A stretch of DNA of 64,000 nt, from the IMG/VR virus record IMGVR_UViG_3300025913_000020; one strand, 5' to 3'. The DNA is from a virus. Taxonomy: Duplodnaviria > Heunggongvirae > Uroviricota > Caudoviricetes. Below are positions 6,240-60,438 of the stretch, piece after piece (position 1 is the stretch's first letter; every line of letters starts with the position of its first letter). Below the pieces are notes generated by a model. The model did not search any database. It was not told the origin of the DNA and worked only from the letters and a program-made list of their open reading frames with translations. The position numbers and the translations under genes are program-made.

Positions 6240-7011
6240 TCGTGTTATTTTAAGCTGTGATCCAAATCCAAAGTTCTTGGATTTCTGGCCGGTGGTGGCG
6301 CAGGCATGGCAGAAGCTTTTCGGCGTCTCGGTCCGTCTGGCTTTGGTTGCGGACATCAAGGCTTTTCCGGCACCGCAACTTTACGCTTACGGGCCGGTAG
6401 ATTATCTCCCGCCTGTTGAAGGCATCCCCGTAGCCAACCAGGCGAAGGTGGCGCGCTACTGGGTGGCTGCCGCTATGCAGGACGATCACGTCACGATGAT
6501 CAATGACATCGACCTGCTGCCTCTTTCCAAAGACTACGTGAATACGCTTTTGGGGAATCGTCCCAAAGGCACTCTGGTCACTCTGGGAGCAGAGCTGTAT
6601 CGAGGCGTGGAAAAGGGCAAGCACATGGCCGGTTACCTCACGGGGGAGACGAGCGTGTTCAAGCAGATGGTGAATCCAAAGGGTCTCGGCTGGACTGACT
6701 GGGTGCGCAGCTTTTCAGGTCTCCAGCGCTTCGATCACAAGGAAGACATTTCCAATCCAACGAACAGCGAGAACCCGGATTGTTTCTCTGATGAGTCGCT
6801 GCTGCGCTATCTCCAGTGGATAAACCCGGTTCCTTTTGAGAATCGCCGTATGCCGTTCTGGCCGTACACCGAGCAGGCGCTCGACCGAGCTGATTGGAAA
6901 TTCGATGCGCAGAAATTGAAAGATGGTGTTTACAAAGAGGCGCACCTGCCGCGTCCGTATTCGGAAAACGTGGACAAAATCAAGCCTCTTACTGACTACC
7001 TGGGAATATGA
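6226..7011 (+). CDS. Glycosyltransferase-like protein
   Basis: RVILSCDPNPKFLDFWP, QAKVARY, MINDIDLLPL (DxD), SDE motif; start re-placed at ATG 6226. Confidence 0.55.
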   Translation: MNSFDRVILSCDPNPKFLDFWPVVAQAWQKLFGVSVRLALVADIKAFPAPQLYAYGPVDYLPPVEGIPVANQAKVARYWVAAAMQDDHVTMINDIDLLPLSKDYVNTLLGNRPKGTLVTLGAELYRGVEKGKHMAGYLTGETSVFKQMVNPKGLGWTDWVRSFSGLQRFDHKEDISNPTNSENPDCFSDESLLRYLQWINPVPFENRRMPFWPYTEQALDRADWKFDAQKLKDGVYKEAHLPRPYSENVDKIKPLTDYLGI

Positions 7012-7235
7012 CGAAAGATGATAAGTTGACATTGTTTTTAGGACAGCTCGCAGATCGCAGAGATGAGCTGGACCCGAAGCCGTCTGTTAAGGAATATGGT
7101 TTTGCCGATGACTGCCGATTCGCTATGAGCCTGTCTCCGCGAATGCGTGATTATGCCCTGGCGATCTTCGAGAAGTACGGGAAGCAGCTTGGCTGGCGCT
7201 CGCTTGACGAGCCTCCGCGCCCTCAGAGACGATAG
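7008..7235 (+). CDS. Hypothetical protein (TAG-terminated)
   Basis: ATGA overlap with the upstream gene, inside the operon. Confidence 0.6.
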   Translation: MTKDDKLTLFLGQLADRRDELDPKPSVKEYGFADDCRFAMSLSPRMRDYALAIFEKYGKQLGWRSLDEPPRPQRR

Positions 7236-7238
7236 CCC

Positions 7239-7751
7239 ATGTTTTTCAACTACCAGGATTTTTACGCGCAGGTTGCGGCTCGTGCCGACTTCAAGACATT
7301 CGTGGAGCTTGGAGTTTACGCTGGTGATTCGCTGGCCTTCCTGCACAGCGAGCTTGAGAAGCGCGGCACTCCGTACACTCTTTGCGGGATCGACCTGTGG
7401 GAGGAGGGGTACGCAAGGACGGGTTATCATCGTCATCTGCCGCAAGGATTACGGCAAATGGTCGAGAAGCGATTTGAAGATGCGAAGTCAGTGTTCCTCG
7501 TCCAGGATGAGTCAGCAGCGGCTGCTAGTCGTTTCACTGACCAGTCGGTTGATTTCGTATTCATTGATGCGAATCACAGCGAGGAATTCGTTACGCGTGA
7601 CATCGCGGCGTGGCTGCCCAAAGTCAGACCTGGAGGAATGATCTCAGGTCACGACTTTCGTGAACCCTGCGGAGTGGAAGCGGCGGTCGTGAAGGCGTTC
7701 GGCGAAGGCAATTTTTCCGTGATCGGGACGGTCTGGCATAAAACCGTATGA
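7239..7751 (+). CDS. Class I SAM-dependent methyltransferase (Methyltransf_24-like)
   Basis: FVELGVYAGDS, GIDLW, VDFVFIDANHS, DI.AWLPKVRPGGMISGHD. Confidence 0.85.
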   Translation: MFFNYQDFYAQVAARADFKTFVELGVYAGDSLAFLHSELEKRGTPYTLCGIDLWEEGYARTGYHRHLPQGLRQMVEKRFEDAKSVFLVQDESAAAASRFTDQSVDFVFIDANHSEEFVTRDIAAWLPKVRPGGMISGHDFREPCGVEAAVVKAFGEGNFSVIGTVWHKTV

Positions 7752-27929: not shown

Positions 27930-27970
27930 CGGTGCCTGGCGCGTTTCATGTTCGCGCCAGGCACTGGCTA

Positions 27971-28306
27971 TTAAGCCGGTGTGGATGAAGTCTGGTGGGC
28001 TTTCAGATACTGTTCCTGCGCCCGCAGCTTCGAAGCCTTTCTCAGTTCCAGCATCTCGCGGGCTTCGTTTTGAAAACGCCAGATAGCGCCGTAGTCGAAG
28101 CCATAAGGTCCGGTGAAACGTTTGATGATCTCGGCGATCTTTTCGCGCTGAGACGCCCATTTGTCCCGACCTATCCCGCTGGCCGTGCTCCGGCGCACCA
28201 GCTTTAAGTCGTGGATGTGTTTGCTGATCTCGGCATAGCGGGTGCGCCACTCAGCGCGCCACGTGAGATATTGTTCCTTCGTTTCGAATGTCAGTGTTGT
28301 ATTCAT
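27971..28306 (-). CDS. Hypothetical protein, coupled to the Pth2-like gene
   Basis: ATG overlaps the TGA of the upstream minus-strand gene. Confidence 0.65.
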   Translation of the reverse strand: MNTTLTFETKEQYLTWRAEWRTRYAEISKHIHDLKLVRRSTASGIGRDKWASQREKIAEIIKRFTGPYGFDYGAIWRFQNEAREMLELRKASKLRAQEQYLKAHQTSSTPA

Positions 28307-28752
28307 GGTAGTAACTGGAACCGCCGTGTGATGGTTTGTATTTCGTGCTTCTTCGCTGGACCTATACCCAGGGCGGTAATGATGGGCTGGCCACCGAAGA
28401 AATTTTCACAGCCGGAATCCACGACCAGGAAGTGCGGGATGCCGAGGCGTTTGGCTTCGTCCACGGCCTGCATGATCCGATTGAGGTTGCCCTCAAGACA
28501 GACTTTGGTGCCGGGAGAATTGGGGTGCTCGACGGAATAGGCCGCAGCGAGCGAGGGATTTTGTTGAAGCGCCTGGATGTAAGCTCCCAGGTAAGCGTGA
28601 CCCGCTTGAGAAGCGGATTTGCCTGGAGTCATGCCCAGGTCTTTGCGAACGATAGCGTAGAGACGGAGAGTTTCGTCCTACGTGAATGGAGAGGCACATG
28701 GGGCACTTTCCCCAGTTGCCTTCGAAGTTTCTAAAACCTACAGTTCTGTCAT
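28303..28752 (-). CDS. pth2: Peptidyl-tRNA hydrolase 2 (Pth2)-family protein with two in-frame TAG codons in its N-terminus
   Basis: Frame from ATG 28752: MTEL*VLETSKATGESAPCASPFT*DETLRLYAIVRKDLGMTPGKSASQAGHA...KVCL...V.D.G...T.LGIGP...I..IT.RFQLL. TAGs at 28738-40 and 28678-80. The conserved first strand (YAIVRKDL) lies upstream of the track start 28632. Confidence 0.8.
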
Positions 28753-28761
28753 AGTGGCGAA

Positions 28762-28790
28762 AATGTAAACGCTTCCTTTTTCGCTGTCAA
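28762..28790 (-). promoter_or_regulatory. sigma70-like promoter of the Pth2-like gene
   Basis: TTGACA-N17-TACATT, 9 nt before ATG 28752 (near-leaderless). Confidence 0.7.
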
Positions 28791-28845
28791 ACGAAAAGTT
28801 GCACGGGCTGAGTAGGTAGGGAGAATCACTGTGGTATGAAATGAA

Positions 28846-28920
28846 TGGCGCTTCCGGCAGGGTTCGAACCTGCGACGCACCGATTTAGAGTCGGTCGTTC
28901 TGCCGCTGAACTACGGAAGC
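28846..28920 (-). tRNA. Amber suppressor tRNA (anticodon CUA)
   Basis: GCTTCCG-TA-GTTC-AGCGGCA-GAAC-G-ACCGA-CTCTAAA-TCGGT-GCGTC-GCAGG-TTCGAAC-CCTGC-CGGAAGC-G-CCA: all four stems fully paired, encoded CCA, G73; anticodon at 28886-28888. Confidence 0.95.
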
Positions 28921-28929
28921 ACGGACAAA

Positions 28930-28958
28930 AAACTAAAATGTTTACATTTATGAGTCAA
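28930..28958 (-). promoter_or_regulatory. sigma70-like promoter of the tRNA, with palindrome in the spacer
   Basis: TTGACT-N17-TAGTTT; AAATGTTTACATTT at 28936-28949. Confidence 0.65.
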
Positions 28959-28988
28959 GCCGGGAATAGCGAATTGATCGGGTCGCCG

Positions 28989-29339
28989 ATGAGCAAAGAG
29001 CTGATCGACGAAAAGATCAAGCGGTGCTATCGCCAGCGCCGTGTTGATAAAGTGCTCACCTGCGTCTCTGCCGTGGTGACCACGACGATTTTTATCCTGA
29101 TCTATCGCCACAACTACGTGATGCTGGCTTTCTTTCTCCTGGTGGGATGGCTGGTGAATCTGGCCGTGATGTTTTATTGCCAGAGAGTGTGGTCGCTGAG
29201 GATCAACCGGTGGGAAGCCCTGTGGAAGTGGTGCGACCTTCTGGAGCACGTCACTTTATTAGGTGAGTCAGGACCTTTTCGAGCAGGATCGGAAGGCATA
29301 ACAGCAGAAATCCTCCGACGACTGCCCACTTCGAGCTGA
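28989..29339 (+). CDS. Membrane protein (two TM segments)
   Basis: Hydrophobic VLTCVSAVVTTTIFILIY and VMLAFFLLVGWLVNLAVMFY; the track's N-terminal extension is tRNA antisense. Confidence 0.6.
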   Translation: MSKELIDEKIKRCYRQRRVDKVLTCVSAVVTTTIFILIYRHNYVMLAFFLLVGWLVNLAVMFYCQRVWSLRINRWEALWKWCDLLEHVTLLGESGPFRAGSEGITAEILRRLPTSS

Positions 29340-32983: not shown

Positions 32984-33295
32984 ATGCGCAGTCTTATTAA
33001 CAAAGGTGAAAGTGGTATCAACCTCGAAGCTCCTGGCCGAATGGACGTTGTCGAGCAAGTCTTACGTGCGGAGCCGTTCTTTAAGCCGAAGATGCGTGGT
33101 CCTGTACGTTGTCGCCGCACCAACCGGCGCGGAATTCGAAAACAGTACAGCGGGCTGACCGTGGAACTGGTCGGAAGGCTGGCTCGCGCTGGACTTGACG
33201 CTGTAACGATGCGCCGCGACGAATTGATTGCGGCAGCGTATCAGCTCTGCCAGCCAGTATCTGACGGCCAGGAAACGTTGTCAGTGAATGCCTGA
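32984..33295 (+). CDS. Hypothetical basic protein
   Basis: Follows a TTGAC...TTGTTTACG motif. Confidence 0.55.
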   Translation: MRSLINKGESGINLEAPGRMDVVEQVLRAEPFFKPKMRGPVRCRRTNRRGIRKQYSGLTVELVGRLARAGLDAVTMRRDELIAAAYQLCQPVSDGQETLSVNA

Positions 33296-33809
33296 GCAGG
33301 ATGCCAAAGACCCAATCCAGGAAGAATTAGAGCGCCAGATTCTTGAGGGCGCGCCGGAAATCTGTATCTGGATGATTGTCTTTGGGTGCCTGACCACCAT
33401 GGCGGAAATCCGCGAGGAATACGCTCTCAGTAGAATTGACCACTCCACTTTCTATCCTGCATTCAACAACGCGTTCGCCGAACTGATCAAGACGGCGGAG
33501 GCCGTGGACCGCTTTGGCGTTATTCTCGCGGTCGTGACCGAGAGCAACTACCGCAGGAGGATCAAGAAAGACCCCTACTACGTCATCGACGCCAAATTTT
33601 CCTCCTTTTTCTGGCGCTGGTACAACTGGTGGGCCGATCATCTTTTCGAACTGGACGATGTAGCTAGGCAAAGGCTCTTTCGGCTTGGCCACGAGAGATC
33701 GTCCACGCTGGCAGAGTATAAGCCTCCGGGCGACTGGATGCACTATCGGCGCACCATGCCAAAAGTGCTCAATTTTTCAGTCCCGCTAGGCGTGGCAAAA
33801 GCCGAATAG
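33288..33809 (+). CDS. Hypothetical protein (TAG-terminated; in frame with the next gene)
   Basis: 173-aa ORF. Confidence 0.65.
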   Translation: MPEQDAKDPIQEELERQILEGAPEICIWMIVFGCLTTMAEIREEYALSRIDHSTFYPAFNNAFAELIKTAEAVDRFGVILAVVTESNYRRRIKKDPYYVIDAKFSSFFWRWYNWWADHLFELDDVARQRLFRLGHERSSTLAEYKPPGDWMHYRRTMPKVLNFSVPLGVAKAE

Positions 33810-33879
33810 TGGGACCCTCACTTCCCTCCTTGGCGCGGCGTTTGTTATCGCTTCAGCGGGACTGTTCTATTATGGGTTG

Positions 33880-33886
33880 GTAGTTA
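33880..33886 (+). promoter_or_regulatory. GTAGTTA-N4-start motif
   Basis: GTAGTTA-tcac-GTG 33891. Confidence 0.55.
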
Positions 33887-33890
33887 TCAC

Positions 33891-36800
33891 GTGAACGAGC
33901 TGATCGAGCAAGAAGTCCTGGATGCCAAAGAGGTTTCCACGAATGAATCAGGACGCGTAGTGGTTGAATCCGACATCGACCTCCGCGACTCTCTCAGCCC
34001 ATCGTTCCATGACGAAGTGGCGCAGCTCCTTTCCAACCTGGGCGTCATCGTTGAATCCCAGTGGCGGCCAGCCGGGCTGGCGACAGAGAAAAGATTTTAC
34101 ACGGGGCCGGTGCTCGTCATCAAAGCTGTTACCGGCAACCAGGATGTCACCGGCCCGAAGCTTGCCGAAGCGGTACGATCGCTGATCCCTGATGCGCTGC
34201 GCGCCCAGACCCGAGTCTGGTGCCCCTTCCTTCACAAGGACGTGTGCAATGAGACACTGGTCTTCGATGTGGCGGTGGCGGGCGCACCGGCAGTCCTCTT
34301 TGAATTTGCGGATGAGGACGAGATGAAAACCATCTCGGAGCCAACCGACCCGAAGGAGCGCATCATGACTGTGCTCAATGGCCATGGTTTGCACATCGAG
34401 AGCTTTGTCACGACTCCATCCGATCCCGGTTGGGGCGATCTCGGTAATCCAGTCTTTGTCATCAAGACCAATCTTCAACCCACTGAAGCTCCCTGGACCT
34501 ACGATCCAGTGGCACAGTCCGGTCTAGTGGAATTCTGTGCGCGGGTAAAGCGCGACCTGGAGGAGATCACACACCAGGATGTGACGTTCGCCTCCAAGTT
34601 CGCCATGGAGAAGGGGGCGTGGAACATTACCTGGCTGACGGATGAGCACGGTAAAATGGAATCGACTGGCGATGCTGATCTCGACGCTGAGTTGGCTAAA
34701 GAGCTGACGAGTGACAAAGTGGATCGCGCTCTGATTGAGGATATTCTTTCCCGTTACGGTGTTCGTCTTTTGCCTGGCGACCGTCAAGGTACTGGCTTCG
34801 ACATACCCAATCAGCCCGACATCATTCCGAACACCTACCACATGTTCCGTGGGCAATGGAAACCCAAGGTCTTGTGGCACGAAGGGTCATCGCAGCTCGG
34901 TACCGATCTTCGTAACGACATCAGCGCGCAGTGTGGGGTGGCACCGAAGGACATTTTCTTCTACATCGACTTCGCGAGCGGTGAAGTCGAAGTGGCTGTG
35001 CCGCGCAAGAATCTCCAGACGGAATCAGAGCTGGACTCCGAAGCCGAAGACGCCAAAGAGGTTGGTGAAATTCCTGCCGACCGCGACGTGATGCCGTCTG
35101 GCGTTGAGGGATGGCAGAGCCGTCTTCAAAATGCTTACGACAGCTTTGAGGAGTTTGCTTCGTACTCGGACATCTACGGGTTGGCCGAACGCCTGGGATT
35201 CGAGACCGCTCAGGAAGCCTGGGAAGCCAATCCGATCATTCGTGGTTCCGTGAATCCTGGTGATTACGGTGTGGTTGAGAGTGCTGGTGATAAGCCACCG
35301 TGGTATGACCCCAACGCCGGTGCGCAGAAAGTCGCCCATGACGTGGAAGGCGCGCCAGTGAAGATCGGCCAAATAGTCCGCGTGACCTCGGTTGATGAAG
35401 CAGAGGAAGGAACTGACTGGGCTAAATTGGTGGGCCAGGAGGGCAAAGTAGTCCACCTGGAGTATTCGTGCGGATGCGGGCAGTCTTATCCAGAGGACCC
35501 GATGATCGGTGTGGAGTTTTCCGATGGCACCGTTCACGAGTTCTGGGCTGAGGAGCTTGGCACCGAGACCAATGAAGCCATCCGGGCCTACCACGCGTCG
35601 CCGAATAAGTTCAAGAAGTTCGATCTCAGTAAAGAGGGCGCGCACTTCGGGTCTCGCGAGCAGGCGTCCAACGTCAGGAAGCATGGGCTGAAAGAGCCGG
35701 TCGCTTACGATCTGGAGGTCAAGAATCCTTTGCGCCTGCATGACATCGGCGTCTGGAATAATTTCAACAACCTGCACTCTGTGCTCAGCGTGGGTGATCA
35801 CATCACGCCCGAGCAGGCTGACGCGGCCTGGGCCGCCTGGTTGCGGTCGGATCAGGAAGGGTGGGAGGCGCTGAAGGCCGCACTCGAACAGAATGGCTAC
35901 GACAGCATCGTCTATCAGAACGAGCAGGAAGGCCCCGGCGACTCCTACCTGGTATTCCGCGACGGCCAGATCAAACGGATCAAGGAGAACGACGAAGGTG
36001 ACTTCAAAGACCTATGGGTGGACTCGCCTAGTTTATCGCACACTTTCACGTTTGTCTTTGATTTCGGTGCCGGAGAAGGCACTCAAGAGTGGGTCTGGAC
36101 CGTTCCCATCGAGATGATGCCGCCTGTCGGCCCGGATGGAGATTTAGAGCCTGTCTTGGATTTTGTTAGAGAGTATGCCCGCAAGCACATGCCAGATACT
36201 CCGCCAGACGACTGGGATTTTCTTGTTGATATTAAACCAGCCAATCCTGAGAACTTGGCCGAGCTGTTGCGTGAGGACCTGAACGATGACGTGGTAGCGG
36301 CTGCGAAAGAGGCATGTAAAGAGCCAAGCGACGAACAGAAGGAAGCTGGCAATTACCAAAAGGGTCACATTGTGATCCATGGTCTTGACATCTCCATCGA
36401 GAATTGCAAAGGGTCCATGCGCCGGGGCAAGGACAAGGGCGGCAAGGAGTGGGAGGTTAAATTACCCGCGCACTACGGCTACATCAAAGGCACCGAAGGC
36501 AAGGATAAGGATCACATCGACGTGTTCATCGGCGAGAAGCCGGAGAGCGAGAAGGTGTTCGTGGTCAATCAGAACAAGCTCGATGGTGGTTTTGATGAGC
36601 ACAAAGTCCTGCTTGGATTTGAGGAGCGCGCCGACGCCATCCAGCATTACGACGACGCCTACACAGGCGGCCTGGGTCCCAAGCTGCGCGACTCGGTCGT
36701 GTCCACCACGATGGAAAAATTCAAAGCGTGGCTCCAGGATGGCGAGCACAAGAAGCCGTTCGAGGAAGTCGAGCTGAAGGAATCCCTCCAGGAGCGGGTC

Positions 36801-38042
36801 AACATCAGCGACGTATTCGCCTACCTGGAATCCATTCGATCCAAACTCGATGAAGCCCGCGACGCGGCGGCTGCTCGTGAACAGGACGAGGACAAGAAGC
36901 GGGACATTCTCAAGGGTCACGGCATCTACAAGGGAAGTTGCGGCCACCGCATCCAGGGCTGCCGGTGCCCGCAGGTCTGCGCCGTGATCGAGGTCCAGGC
37001 TCCGTGCCGCGAGTGTGCAAGTAAAGCCCCCATCCACGAATTCGTAAACAAGTGGCGGTCTCAACGCATTCAGGAGGCAACCGATCCTGAACACATGTTC
37101 CAGTCTCGTGAATATGACTGTGGTCCAACGTGCATCAAAATGGTGGCCAACGCTCTCGGGGTTGGCCGACAGCTCACTCTCGACGACATCATCCAGGTCT
37201 GCGGCAGCGACCCAACGACCGGGACCGACGATAAGAAGATGGAGAAGGGCTTGGCCGCCGCAGGCGTACCGTTCCAGGTAGGCGGGGCGCGCACTGCCGA
37301 AGACCTGGCGACCTCGCTCAATGCGGGCAACCTGATCATCCTGCGAACGCTAACGCGTGGCATCAAGCATTGGATCGTGCTCTACCGTTTCGACGGACAA
37401 CGCTTTCTCGCACAAGACCCTTGGCTTGGTCCACTCAGCTACACGCCCGAGGAAGTCGTCAACATCTGGAAGCCTCGCGACTATTTCTACTTTGAGGTTC
37501 CGCGCACGATGGAGCAGCGCGTGGACAGCTATCAGATTGCGACCTACGCCATGCTGAAAGCCCTGGGCGAGTCCCAGGAGGGCGGCAACCTGCTGTTCGT
37601 GAACGCGACGGGCGAAGTCATGCCTGCCCTGGAGAAAGCCATCGTGGATGTTTTCCCACGCTATGCCGATTGGGTGGTGGGCTACGCGAAGTCCGCGATG
37701 GACCCGCAGCTCTCAGTCGTGGTGCTCGATGGCCACGAGGTCGTCGGATTTTATCTCATCGGTCGGCGTGATGTGATTGACGGCACCGCTGGCATGGAGC
37801 TGATGGAAGACCTGACGCCGTACGCTCAGAAGCGTGGCGTTGAAGGCGTCGCTCTCGGGGTCGTGGGCAGCGCACGTGGACGCGGCATCGGCAACCGGCT
37901 CAAGGATTATCCCAAGCACCTGGGCGTGGAATACGTCTGGGGACTTCAGATGAGGAAGCTCGGCAACTTGAAGGACTGGCTCAAGCGCCGACGCCTGGTT
38001 GCGCAGAGCGCTGAGTGCTTCGCCACGCTCGAAGATTTGTAA
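33891..38042 (+). CDS. Polyvalent multi-domain protein: CarS-like SH3, ART-like, inorganic-pyrophosphatase-like, C39 peptidase, GNAT
   Basis: HDVEGAPVKIG...YPEDPMI...F.AEEL; AYHAS...HFGS...KNP...GYDSIVY.N; EAGNYQKGH...ISIEN.KGS.R.G...HYGYI.GT.G.D.DH.DVF; QSREYDCGPTC...HW...DP; RGRGIG. Confidence 0.8.
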   Translation: MNELIEQEVLDAKEVSTNESGRVVVESDIDLRDSLSPSFHDEVAQLLSNLGVIVESQWRPAGLATEKRFYTGPVLVIKAVTGNQDVTGPKLAEAVRSLIPDALRAQTRVWCPFLHKDVCNETLVFDVAVAGAPAVLFEFADEDEMKTISEPTDPKERIMTVLNGHGLHIESFVTTPSDPGWGDLGNPVFVIKTNLQPTEAPWTYDPVAQSGLVEFCARVKRDLEEITHQDVTFASKFAMEKGAWNITWLTDEHGKMESTGDADLDAELAKELTSDKVDRALIEDILSRYGVRLLPGDRQGTGFDIPNQPDIIPNTYHMFRGQWKPKVLWHEGSSQLGTDLRNDISAQCGVAPKDIFFYIDFASGEVEVAVPRKNLQTESELDSEAEDAKEVGEIPADRDVMPSGVEGWQSRLQNAYDSFEEFASYSDIYGLAERLGFETAQEAWEANPIIRGSVNPGDYGVVESAGDKPPWYDPNAGAQKVAHDVEGAPVKIGQIVRVTSVDEAEEGTDWAKLVGQEGKVVHLEYSCGCGQSYPEDPMIGVEFSDGTVHEFWAEELGTETNEAIRAYHASPNKFKKFDLSKEGAHFGSREQASNVRKHGLKEPVAYDLEVKNPLRLHDIGVWNNFNNLHSVLSVGDHITPEQADAAWAAWLRSDQEGWEALKAALEQNGYDSIVYQNEQEGPGDSYLVFRDGQIKRIKENDEGDFKDLWVDSPSLSHTFTFVFDFGAGEGTQEWVWTVPIEMMPPVGPDGDLEPVLDFVREYARKHMPDTPPDDWDFLVDIKPANPENLAELLREDLNDDVVAAAKEACKEPSDEQKEAGNYQKGHIVIHGLDISIENCKGSMRRGKDKGGKEWEVKLPAHYGYIKGTEGKDKDHIDVFIGEKPESEKVFVVNQNKLDGGFDEHKVLLGFEERADAIQHYDDAYTGGLGPKLRDSVVSTTMEKFKAWLQDGEHKKPFEEVELKESLQERVNISDVFAYLESIRSKLDEARDAAAAREQDEDKKRDILKGHGIYKGSCGHRIQGCRCPQVCAVIEVQAPCRECASKAPIHEFVNKWRSQRIQEATDPEHMFQSREYDCGPTCIKMVANALGVGRQLTLDDIIQVCGSDPTTGTDDKKMEKGLAAAGVPFQVGGARTAEDLATSLNAGNLIILRTLTRGIKHWIVLYRFDGQRFLAQDPWLGPLSYTPEEVVNIWKPRDYFYFEVPRTMEQRVDSYQIATYAMLKALGESQEGGNLLFVNATGEVMPALEKAIVDVFPRYADWVVGYAKSAMDPQLSVVVLDGHEVVGFYLIGRRDVIDGTAGMELMEDLTPYAQKRGVEGVALGVVGSARGRGIGNRLKDYPKHLGVEYVWGLQMRKLGNLKDWLKRRRLVAQSAECFATLEDL

Positions 38043-59652: not shown

Positions 59653-60060
59653 ATGGGCGGCACTATTACACCACCATCCGACCGGCAGGTCATCAGCGAT
59701 CTGCGCCAGGAGAACGCAGCGCTTCGCAGACTCCTGGAGAAGCTGGCACGCGCACGCACCGTGAAGGACTTGAAGGCGGCGCAGAAGGAAGCCCAGGAGG
59801 AGATCAACGGCCCTGTCCGCCAGTCCAAGTCCATCTACTGGAATCGTTGGGACACGGGGTACGAACCTCCCCGCCTGCGTGAAGTGCGCGGCAAGATGCG
59901 GGTCGTTCCTCAGTATGGCGGCGACGGCCTTTACTTTTTAATGGAGGGCAGCAAAAAGGTCAACGAGTGCTCGATGACAGCCCAGGACGCCCGGCAGCGT
60001 AATGCCGACCGAACGAAGAATAACATCAAGGCGCTGTGGCACTGGTCAGGCAGGAAATAG
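59653..60060 (+). CDS. Hypothetical protein (TAG-terminated; in frame with the next gene)
   Basis: Follows the promoter. Confidence 0.6.
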   Translation: MGGTITPPSDRQVISDLRQENAALRRLLEKLARARTVKDLKAAQKEAQEEINGPVRQSKSIYWNRWDTGYEPPRLREVRGKMRVVPQYGGDGLYFLMEGSKKVNECSMTAQDARQRNADRTKNNIKALWHWSGRK

Positions 60061-60072
60061 TTCTCTCGGGAT

Positions 60073-60438
60073 ATGGCAAAATCATCTTTCAATATCTCGA
60101 CCGGTGGCCTCATCGTAATCTTTGCAGTCGGCTACATGGGTTACCAGCTTCTCCACAAAGCTATTGGCAGCGACGACAGTGACAGCGAGGAGACCAAGCC
60201 GAAAGTCACCACCCGTGCCGCCGCTCCTGACGATGATGTCACCGTCACGAAGAAAGTGATGAGCGACAGCGAACATGACACGGTCGTTGTGCGCTCGAAG
60301 GGCAACGAGTACGTCCGCATCGGCGAGATGGTTTTCTGCTGGCACAGCAACGTGCTCACCGGTGTCTTCACCAAGAATGGCCTCGTGCCCGGCTGGCAAA
60401 CCATGACCAATCAACCACCACCATCACATGCTCCGTAA
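60073..60438 (+). CDS. Membrane-anchored hypothetical protein
   Basis: N-terminal TM GGLIVIFAVGYMGY. Confidence 0.6.
   Translation: MAKSSFNISTGGLIVIFAVGYMGYQLLHKAIGSDDSDSEETKPKVTTRAAAPDDDVTVTKKVMSDSEHDTVVVRSKGNEYVRIGEMVFCWHSNVLTGVFTKNGLVPGWQTMTNQPPPSHAP

What the first reader, a model, noticed from the sequence alone, without database searches (positions are those of the whole stretch)
28846..28920. Perfect CUA suppressor tRNA in a genome that still uses TAG as a stop
Seen: flawless cloverleaf with encoded CCA, a dedicated promoter, loop CUCUAAA and G73. About 15 genes in the window end in TAG and all long genes are intact under code 11. Established: CUCCAAA is the usual tRNA-Trp loop, and a Trp-derived CUA suppressor in E. 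coli (Su7) is charged largely with Gln; code-15 phages carry such tRNAs. Inference: partial or timed suppression, or an evolutionary precursor of TAG recoding; the inserted amino acid is unknown (Gln or Trp most likely).
Basis: partly seen in the sequence, partly recalled or inferred. Interest (0 to 1): 0.75.

Follow-up and report, generated by a model that had tools for sequence, protein, structure and literature searches.

The report
Amber suppressor tRNA gating phage Pth2
A giant soil phage that uses the normal genetic code carries a real tRNA that reads the stop codon UAG. Its conserved job appears to be reading two built-in UAG stops at the start of the neighbouring peptidyl-tRNA hydrolase (Pth2) gene, a switch kept in more than 90 phage sequences, including lab-grown phages.

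Summary
The tRNA is real. It lies at 28846-28920 on the minus strand, has anticodon CUA, loop CUCUAAA, G73 and an encoded CCA, and scores 65.9 bits against Rfam tRNA. The window is part of a 245-kb uncultured rhizosphere jumbo phage that uses the standard code: 14 of 112 called genes end in TAG.

The tRNA is not an orphan. 93 nt downstream on the same strand, a promoter sits 9 nt before an ATG (28752). The reading frame then runs M-T-E-L-TAG, 19 codons, TAG, and a complete Pth2 domain. No start codon lies between the second TAG and the first beta-strand.

Of 94 distinct related loci, 91 have the same short leader with one or two in-frame stops. Sixty-four of these have a cognate suppressor tRNA just upstream.

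The stop codon varies together with the anticodon:
- TAG with CUA in dozens of loci.
- TAA with UUA in one contig.
- TGA with UCA in the cultured Agrobacterium phage Atu_ph07.

Gate stops are followed by a purine in 41 of 41 cases. The window's real TAG terminators are followed by a purine in 4 of 14.

The inserted amino acid is unknown, and descent from tRNA-Trp is not shown. I found no paper describing this pairing. Earlier reports of this scan describe the same pairing on other genomes (52 notes, at least 46 genomes).

The parts
28846..28920 (-). tRNA(CUA), 75 nt with encoded CCA; anticodon at 28888-28886; discriminator G73
   Evidence: ARAGORN; Rfam tRNA 65.9 bits. The cloverleaf is supported by covariation among 20 related suppressor tRNAs: 96% of cells paired and 20 of 21 pairs changed on both sides.
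28930..28958 (-). Possible promoter of the tRNA: TTGACT, 17 nt, TAGTTT, ending 9 nt before the tRNA 5' end
   Evidence: Read only. The -10 box is weak and the scan did not report it.
28762..28790 (-). Promoter of the Pth2 message: TTGACA, 17 nt, TACATT; its -10 box ends 9 nt before the ATG, with no Shine-Dalgarno sequence, so the mRNA is leaderless or nearly so
   Evidence: Promoter scan, 10 of 12 matches. TTGAC starts 34-38 nt before the leader start codon in 15 of 27 related loci, and others have a Shine-Dalgarno-like sequence before the same ATG.
28738..28752 (-). Mini-ORF ATG ACA GAA CTG TAG: start codon 28752-28750 and first gate TAG 28740-28738, followed by G
   Evidence: A stop within the first 10 codons is found in all 27 curated related loci.
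28678..28737 (-). 19-codon open linker, then the second gate TAG (28680-28678) in the context ACG TAG GAC, directly before the Pth2 domain
   Evidence: No ATG, GTG or TTG lies between this TAG and the first beta-strand.
28303..28677 (-). Pth2 domain (PF01981, profile 2-115 of 115) to stop TGA 28305-28303. The code-11 gene call starts at the internal ATG 28632 and lacks the first beta-strand.
   Evidence: Pfam 76.7 bits. Aligns at residues 5-123 with residues 2-115 of solved Pth2 2zv3_A. 483 homologues.
27971..28306 (-). 111-aa helical protein of unknown function; its ATG overlaps the Pth2 stop (ATGA), so its translation may be coupled to read-through
   Evidence: Homologues sit in the same position in L001, L002, L005, L009 and L010. 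No Pfam hit and no informative Atlas hit.

Best explanation
The tRNA is a working, phage-encoded amber suppressor. Its conserved target is the gene next to it. The Pth2 message starts, almost without a leader, at ATG 28752. It has UAG at codon 5 and again at codon 25, immediately before the enzyme domain.

Release factor 1 would end translation after four residues unless the phage tRNA(CUA) inserts an amino acid at both UAGs. Full-length Pth2 is therefore made only when the suppressor tRNA is present, charged and able to outcompete termination. With two gates, output should depend steeply on tRNA activity.

The other TAG codons in the window are genuine terminators and tend to sit in contexts that are poorly suppressed.

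Shown here: the anatomy, its conservation, and the co-variation of stop codon and anticodon. Inferred: actual read-through, the amino acid inserted, and the purpose. My best guess at the purpose is a delay or dose limiter for an enzyme that acts on peptidyl-tRNA or N-blocked aminoacyl-tRNA and may be harmful if made early or in excess.
For: 1. The tRNA is canonical, and its relatives keep the cloverleaf through compensatory changes.

2. The Pth2 domain begins right after the second TAG and aligns from residue 2 of a solved 115-residue Pth2. A start at the internal ATG would remove the first strand. The DNA before that ATG is conserved at the amino-acid level, with mostly synonymous differences between the window and L001.

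3. Close relatives (72-88% identical Pth2) have the same order: tRNA, then M-x3-TAG, then an open linker of 14-41 codons, then T-TAG, then the domain.

4. More distant loci show the same design. This holds for all 17 IMG/VR loci and for 64 of 66 distinct metagenome loci. Across all sets, 91 of 94 distinct loci are gated and 64 have a cognate tRNA upstream on the same strand.

5. Stop codon and anticodon vary together. TAG goes with CUA in dozens of loci. TAA,TAA goes with UUA in L023. TGA goes with UCA in Atu_ph07 (PMC6102473). TAG goes with two CUA tRNAs in phage Phosso.

6. The 27 curated leaders hold 647 sense codons and no non-cognate stop.

7. The base after a gate stop is a purine in 41 of 41 cases, and in 63 of 64 in the metagenome set. 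For the window's own TAG terminators it is a purine in 4 of 14, Fisher p = 3e-8.

8. Promoters or Shine-Dalgarno-like sequences are placed for the mini-ORF's ATG, not for the internal Met.

9. Pth2 is the only such target in the 64-kb window.
Against: - There is no expression, aminoacylation or proteomic evidence. No RNA run holding this DNA was listed.
- One close relative (L010/L011) keeps a CUA tRNA 620 nt upstream of an ungated Pth2 that has its own ATG. XacN1 has CUA tRNAs and an ungated, distant Pth2. Suppressor tRNAs may therefore have further roles.
- 27 gated loci show no tRNA in the DNA fetched. Some of these had only 48-700 nt of upstream DNA, and some had the full 2.5 kb.
- Only 64 kb of about 245 kb of this genome could be read, so other TAG-containing genes elsewhere are not excluded.
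- Why a Pth2 should be gated is unexplained.
Confidence: 0.8

Rival explanations
1. The tRNA is a general low-level suppressor, or a first step toward genome-wide TAG recoding, with no special target. The TAGs before Pth2 are incidental.
For: Standard-code relatives of recoded phages can carry suppressor tRNAs (bioRxiv 10.1101/2021.08.26.457843). L010 and XacN1 keep CUA tRNAs without a gated Pth2.
Against: 91 of 94 distinct Pth2 loci are gated, at Pth2 identities of 37-88%. Stop codon and anticodon co-vary in three forms. The context around the gate is conserved. TAG is not depleted as a terminator, at 14 of 112 genes.
Confidence: 0.07
2. Pth2 is translated from the internal ATG 28632, as code-11 gene callers annotate it. 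The upstream frame is untranslated, and the tRNA serves something else.
For: About half of the 120 best database homologues are annotated from that Met, at 103-110 aa. So are the Atu_ph07 and Phosso CDS.
Against: That start deletes the first beta-strand of the fold. The 15 codons before it are conserved as protein. There is no Shine-Dalgarno sequence before it. Promoters and Shine-Dalgarno-like sequences sit at the mini-ORF's ATG. Frames stay open across 647 leader codons.
Confidence: 0.05
3. The phage is a code-15 type phage whose recoded (late or lysis) genes lie outside this window. Pth2 is just one of many TAG-containing genes.
For: Only about a quarter of the 245-kb contig was visible, and no whole genome is held.
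Against: The window holds replication and structural genes (DnaB-like helicase, baseplate wedge, a 1383-aa multidomain protein), and all are intact in code 11. Coding density is 90% in code 11. The cultured phage Atu_ph07 is described with 267 TGA stops and a normal code (PMC6102473).
Confidence: 0.05
4. It is a pyrrolysine tRNA, as ARAGORN labels it, or a spare or decoy tRNA that counters host anticodon nucleases.
For: ARAGORN's label. Large phages carry tRNAs that replace cleaved host tRNAs (my knowledge).
Against: The label follows from the anticodon alone. As I recall them, tRNA-Pyl has a 3-nt variable loop, a small D loop without GG, and one base between the acceptor and D stems; this tRNA has a 5-nt variable loop, GG in the D loop, and U8-A9. 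A stop-reading tRNA replaces no host tRNA.
Confidence: 0.02

Closest known systems
Stop-codon recoding in phages with their own suppressor tRNAs (code 15 TAG to Gln, code 4 TGA to Trp: crAss-like, Lak and other gut phages; bioRxiv 10.1101/2021.08.26.457843; PMC9523058)
   Same: A phage-encoded tRNA with a stop anticodon makes in-frame stops readable in a host that uses the standard code. It has been proposed as a timing device.
   Different: In those phages many genes (structural, lysis) carry the stop, it is no longer used to terminate, and code-11 coding density collapses. Here one small gene carries it, TAG still ends 14 of 112 genes, the gate lies in the first 10 codons, and GC content is 55%.
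Orphan suppressor tRNAs of cultured jumbo phages (XacN1, Atu_ph07; PMC5852040, PMC6102473)
   Same: Standard-code jumbo phages with CUA or UCA tRNAs and a Pth gene in the same genome.
   Different: The XacN1 authors read past the 18 amber stop codons of the genome, found no added similarity, and reported that no target could be identified. Here the target is a stop at the start of a gene, and in Atu_ph07 the Pth2 leader has the matching TGA.
Autoregulated prfB (RF2) of bacteria: an in-frame UGA at codon 26 bypassed by a +1 frameshift (my knowledge)
   Same: A translation-factor gene whose own synthesis depends on how a stop codon early in its frame is handled.
   Different: prfB uses frameshifting and senses its own product. 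Here a separate tRNA gene supplies read-through, and no feedback by Pth2 has been shown.
Lambda bar minigenes and early peptidyl-tRNA drop-off handled by Pth (PMC2490762, PMC10192219)
   Same: A 2-9 codon ORF ending in a stop is the kind of template that yields peptidyl-tRNA, the substrate of Pth enzymes.
   Different: The bar minigenes are toxic stand-alone ORFs. Here the mini-ORF is the entry to the hydrolase's own frame. A link to drop-off is only my speculation.
Classical E. coli and T4 nonsense suppressors (supE, supF, Su7, psu1; my knowledge)
   Same: An elongator tRNA with a stop anticodon, and a preference for a purine after the stop.
   Different: Those are laboratory mutants of normal tRNAs. 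This one is a conserved wild-type gene with a built-in target.

Membership tests
tRNA (Rfam RF00005) | Cloverleaf scoring above the gathering threshold, with conserved D- and T-loop bases | tested here: met
   65.9 bits against a threshold of 29, full-length match; ARAGORN.
Nonsense suppressor tRNA | Anticodon complementary to a stop codon in an otherwise functional elongator tRNA | tested here: met
   Anticodon CUA in loop CUCUAAA. Twenty related suppressor tRNAs keep the cloverleaf by compensatory change.
Nonsense suppressor tRNA | Decodes the stop in vivo (charged, and delivered to the ribosome) | not testable with these tools
   Indirect support only: cognate in-frame stops in 91 of 94 neighbouring Pth2 genes, and co-variation of stop and anticodon.
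tRNA-Pyl | 3-nt variable loop, short D loop lacking G18-G19, a single base between the acceptor and D stems (my knowledge) | tested here: not met
   5-nt variable loop, D loop AGCGGCA containing GG, and U8-A9 present.
Trp-derived (Su7-like) amber suppressor | Body of bacterial tRNA-Trp: A1-U72 and G73 (my knowledge) | tested here: inconclusive
   G73 is present, but the acceptor stem has G1-C72 and C2-G71. The best matches among 92 typed phage tRNAs are about 0.7 identical and spread over many isotypes.
Code-15 (TAG-recoded) phage | Many genes with in-frame TAG, TAG not used as a terminator, low coding density in code 11 | tested here: not met
   One gene with supported in-frame TAGs, 14 of 112 genes ending in TAG, and 90% coding density. 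This covers the window only.
PTH2 (Pfam PF01981) | Full-length match to the family profile above the gathering score | tested here: met
   76.7 bits against a threshold of 23, profile 2-115 of 115. Matches solved Pth2 structures with E values from 4e-11 to 5e-5.
PTH2 (Pfam PF01981) | Peptidyl-tRNA hydrolase activity | not testable with these tools
   The GK..Q..HA and D-S-G motifs are invariant in 27 homologues, but D-S-G-C replaces the D-A-G of the solved enzymes.

The most novel reading that the evidence does not exclude
The tRNA and the gated Pth2 form a self-contained controller of translation state. The amount of this archaeal/eukaryotic-type hydrolase would be set by the contest between the phage suppressor tRNA and host release factors at a minigene-like leader. 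The enzyme would then reshape the infected cell's pool of peptidyl-tRNA or N-blocked aminoacyl-tRNA. That pool might include formyl-Met-tRNA, which, as I recall, archaeal Pth2 does not spare, unlike bacterial Pth. It might also include acetylated aminoacyl-tRNAs made by host toxins. This would explain why the enzyme must be locked behind a phage-only key, and it would give jumbo-phage suppressor tRNAs a defined function.
Probability: 0.25. Interest if true: 0.9.

Novelty: new variant of a known kind. Interest (0 to 1): 0.8.

Why it matters
Suppressor tRNAs keep turning up in large phages that use the standard code, and published genome papers state that no target could be identified (XacN1, PMC5852040). 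This locus and more than 90 related ones give a specific, testable answer: the target is a stop codon built into the first codons of a Pth2 gene.

The three matched pairs (TAG/CUA, TAA/UUA, TGA/UCA) make chance an unlikely explanation. The pairing also occurs in phages that grow in the laboratory on Agrobacterium and Sinorhizobium, so experiments are possible.

There are two practical consequences. Public annotations of these genes start at an internal Met and lack the first strand of the fold. Code-15 gene callers write a 'Q' at the gate that has no evidence behind it. If the switch works as read, it is also a compact natural part: a single gene made dependent on an orthogonal tRNA.

Tried and rejected
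- **Own genome.** No whole genome is held for this window. Megablast against cultured phages found nothing. Two neighbouring proteins gave no relatives in IMG/VR. The exact tRNA pattern is not in IMG/VR.
- **TAG-ended genes in frame with the next gene.** There are three: 7008-7235, 33288-33809 and 59653-60060. This is not above the rate for TGA- and TAA-ended genes: 3 of 14 against 7 of 73 and 3 of 25. I dropped them as read-through candidates.
- **Back-up stops after TAG terminators.** Half of the TAG terminators have a second stop within 8 codons, against 26% for TGA and 40% for TAA. With n = 14 this is not significant.
- **Gln as the inserted residue.** Homologues P0022, P0026 and P0038 show T-Q-V where this gene has T-TAG-V. 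The DNA of P0026 and P0038 translates to these proteins only with TAG read as Q, so that evidence is void. P0022's DNA was not checked.
- **Isotype of the tRNA.** Pairwise identity to 92 typed phage tRNAs is uninformative.
- **Initiator-like tRNA starting at UAG.** Rejected by reading: position 1-72 is paired, and the anticodon stem lacks three G-C pairs.
- **Re-initiation after the mini-ORF.** No start codon follows the gates; the next codon is GTT, GAC, ATC or similar.
- **RNA evidence.** No RNA holder is listed among public runs for this stretch.
- **The 111-aa downstream protein.** No Pfam hit and no informative Atlas hit. It is not homologous to the gene in the same position in Atu_ph07.
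- **Literature.** Five searches found no paper linking suppressor tRNAs to a Pth2 leader. The Sulfolobus Pth2 paper I recall was not in the library.

Full report
**Observation**

ARAGORN reports a single tRNA in the window, at 28846-28920 on the minus strand, with anticodon CTA. Rfam's tRNA model matches it end to end at 65.9 bits, against a gathering score of 29. Reading the minus strand shows:
- a regular class-I cloverleaf with a 7-bp acceptor stem beginning G1-C72;
- U8-A9, a 4-bp D stem, and a D loop containing GG;
- a 5-bp anticodon stem and the loop CUCUAAA;
- a 5-nt variable loop and a TTCGAAC T loop;
- discriminator G and an encoded CCA.

ARAGORN's 'Pyl' label follows from the anticodon only. 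The shape is not that of tRNA-Pyl.

**The genome**

The window is 55% GC and is packed with small genes. It also has a DnaB-like helicase, a second helicase, a baseplate wedge protein and a 1383-aa multidomain protein. Its Pth2 protein is on record on a 245-kb contig, and DNA runs place it in rhizosphere metagenomes. It is therefore an uncultured jumbo phage. No whole genome is held.

A simple codon-usage gene call gives 112 genes covering 90% of the window: 73 end in TGA, 25 in TAA and 14 in TAG. Reading TAG as sense does not merge genes beyond chance. The phage uses the standard code in this window.

**What lies next to the tRNA**

A first-stage note on this same window (e1-5385572) pointed to the gene downstream, and I checked it. 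On the minus strand the order is as follows.
- A sigma-70-type promoter, TTGACA-17-TACATT at 28790-28762, is the only promoter the scan finds in this stretch.
- Nine bases after it comes an ATG (28752-28750), with no Shine-Dalgarno sequence.
- The frame then reads M-T-E-L, TAG (28740-28738), 19 sense codons, TAG (28680-28678), and then a complete PTH2 domain down to TGA 28305-28303.

Pfam PF01981 matches from profile position 2 to 115 of 115 at 76.7 bits. The protein aligns from residue 2 of the solved 115-residue archaeal Pth2 2zv3_A.

No ATG, GTG or TTG lies between the second TAG and the first beta-strand (LRLYAIVR). The code-11 gene model starts at the Met inside the conserved DLGMxxGK motif (28632) and would lack that strand.

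**Conservation**

The Pth2 has 483 homologues with E below 1e-5. About half of the best 120 are annotated from that same internal Met, at 103-110 aa and 89-90% coverage.

I fetched the DNA of ten of them. The close relatives L001, L002-4 and L005-6 (72-88% identical Pth2) have the same layout, in this order:
- the tRNA(CUA);
- a promoter;
- M-x3-TAG;
- an open linker of 14, 20 or 41 codons with an unrelated sequence;
- T-TAG;
- the domain.

The tRNA of L002 differs from the window's at many stem positions through compensatory changes but keeps CUA. More distant relatives (L007-9, L012-13) have one or two TAGs in a short leader.

An IMG/VR scan with a Pth2 alignment returned 17 loci at 37-64% identity. 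All 17 have one or two in-frame stops in a short leader before the domain, with an ATG or GTG start. Twelve have a suppressor tRNA within 2.5 kb upstream.

A metagenome scan gave 66 further distinct loci:
- 64 are gated (62 TAG, 2 TAA);
- 45 have the cognate tRNA upstream on the same strand, typically about 65 nt from the domain.

Over all sets there are 94 distinct loci. Ninety-one are gated. Sixty-four have the cognate tRNA in the DNA fetched.

Across 27 curated leaders there are 41 gates and 647 sense codons, with no non-cognate stop.

**Co-variation of stop and anticodon**

This is the strongest argument.
- In L023 the neighbouring tRNA has anticodon UUA, and both leader stops are TAA.
- In the cultured Agrobacterium phage Atu_ph07 the Pth2 homologue (44% identical, annotated from the internal Met) has the leader M-I-G-E-H-F-TGA. 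The only stop-reading tRNA among the phage's tRNA loci that ARAGORN called has anticodon UCA; one Rfam tRNA hit (L044) was not called. The genome paper also reports a single UCA suppressor (PMC6102473).
- In the cultured Sinorhizobium phage Phosso the leader is M-K-Y-TAG behind an AGGAG Shine-Dalgarno sequence. The phage has two CUA tRNAs. One is annotated tRNA-Pyl. The other is annotated 'Undet' and lies 4.6 kb upstream of Pth2.
- No locus has an upstream same-strand suppressor of the wrong type as its only suppressor.

**Context of the gates**

The base after a gate stop is a purine in 41 of 41 curated gates (32 G, 9 A) and in 63 of 64 metagenome loci. The codon before it is Thr (ACN) in 29 of 41 curated gates and ACG or ACA in 56 of 64 metagenome loci. 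The codon after it is GTT in 20 of 41.

The window's 14 genuine TAG terminators are followed by a purine in only 4 cases. That compares with 41 of 41 for gates (Fisher p = 3e-8) and with 55% for TGA and TAA terminators (p = 0.09). A purine after UAG favours suppression by tRNAs in E. coli (my recollection of Bossi and of Miller and Albertini). This fits selective read-through at the gates and normal termination elsewhere.

**Start-site evidence**

TTGAC begins 34-38 nt before the leader's start codon in 15 of 27 loci, with no Shine-Dalgarno sequence there, which fits leaderless messages. Four others, including Phosso, have a Shine-Dalgarno-like sequence in front of the mini-ORF's start codon. 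This agrees with earlier notes on this genome about promoters placed against start codons (e1-1879209, e1-5385574).

**The tRNAs**

Twenty suppressor tRNAs from these loci form the cloverleaf in 96% of cells, with changes on both sides in 20 of 21 pairs. Among 65 distinct ones:
- all are 71-78 nt long;
- 55 encode CCA;
- 50 have the loop CUCUAAA;
- the discriminator is A in 35 and G in 20.

They may therefore not share one amino-acid identity. Because the gates lie in a poorly conserved leader, the residue inserted may not matter. I could not determine it for the window's tRNA.

The apparent Gln in homologues P0022, P0026 and P0038 is an artefact. The DNA of P0026 and P0038 gives these proteins only if TAG is read as Q; P0022 was not checked.

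**Other targets**

In the window, the only ATG-led mini-ORF ending in TAG plus purine that runs into a long frame without a nearby start codon is this one. Extending every called gene upstream through TAG gives no other convincing case.

**Limits and exceptions**

- L010/L011 have a CUA tRNA 620 nt upstream of a Pth2 that has its own ATG exactly where the gate would be.
- XacN1 and RsoM2USA have distant, ungated Pth2 genes.
- The suppressor may therefore have further uses, and the gate can be lost.
- Nothing here shows expression, charging or read-through.

**Mechanism**

I commit to a tRNA-dependent translational gate. Pth2 is made only when the phage's own suppressor outcompetes the release factor, twice in this phage.

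Why a Pth2 should be gated is inference. Possible reasons are:
- a delay until the tRNA has accumulated;
- a strict cap on the dose of an enzyme that could attack useful N-blocked aminoacyl-tRNAs;
- a read-out of the state of translation at a minigene-like leader. Early peptidyl-tRNA drop-off and minigenes are the classical source of Pth substrates (PMC2490762, PMC10192219).

**Novelty**

Five literature searches found no description of this pairing. The XacN1 paper states that targets of its CUA tRNAs could not be identified. The recoding literature I read does not mention peptidyl-tRNA hydrolase.

Within this scan the same pairing has been reported before on other genomes: 52 notes in at least 46 genomes. 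This window is a further instance.
- the TAA/UUA and TGA/UCA matched pairs;
- the purine rule after the gate stop;
- the placement of promoters and Shine-Dalgarno sequences at the mini-ORF;
- the warning about the code-15 'Q' artefact.

Noticed in passing
L015:2375-2485, L017:2366-2485, L018:2363-2485 and ten metagenome loci (L060, L068, L071, L072, L080, L082, L090, L091, L094, L100): In 13 loci the suppressor tRNA gene lies inside the open leader frame. An ATG-led mini-ORF and its gate lie upstream of the tRNA, and no ATG lies between the tRNA and the last gate. Ribosomes would have to read through the unprocessed tRNA sequence, so tRNA processing and Pth2 translation might compete.
   Followed up: partly
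window 27971-28306 (-): A 111-aa helical protein whose ATG overlaps the Pth2 stop codon (ATGA). It is conserved in the same position in L001, L002, L005, L009 and L010 but not in Atu_ph07 or Phosso. There is no family or fold hint. It may be co-gated by translational coupling.
   Followed up: partly
P0022, P0026, P0038 (loci L045, L046): Public protein collections hold versions of this gene translated with TAG read as Q by code-15 gene callers, on contigs too short to justify that code. The 'Q' at the gates is not evidence for glutamine.
   Followed up: yes
window 7008-7751, 33288-38042, 59653-60438 (+): Three TAG-ended genes are in frame with the next gene: a 75-aa ORF before a Methyltransf_24 gene, a 173-aa ORF before the 1383-aa protein, and a 135-aa ORF before a 121-aa one. 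The rate is not above that for TGA or TAA, but programmed read-through fusions were not tested in relatives.
   Followed up: partly
window 27930-28300 compared with L005:3508-4140, L002:3535-4119, L001:4011-4625: Relatives carry a CTP_transf_like (PF01467) gene on the opposite strand just beyond the Pth2 operon. The window, about 75% identical in DNA to L005 over this region, lacks it.
   Followed up: partly
L036:984-1059 (Phosso, record 171983-172058): A second CUA tRNA of phage Phosso is annotated 'tRNA-Undet'. It sits between phage-encoded cysteinyl- and seryl-tRNA synthetase genes, 4.6 kb upstream of the gated Pth2.
   Followed up: no
L098:3846-3919, L125:803-874: Two loci with a TAG-gated Pth2 also carry a class-I tRNA with anticodon UCA nearby, so some of these phages have suppressors for two different stops.
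   Followed up: no
window 28845-29339 (+): The 164-aa ORF listed here overlaps the tRNA on the other strand and is probably mis-started. An in-frame ATG at 28989 would give a small hydrophobic protein transcribed away from the tRNA.
   Followed up: no
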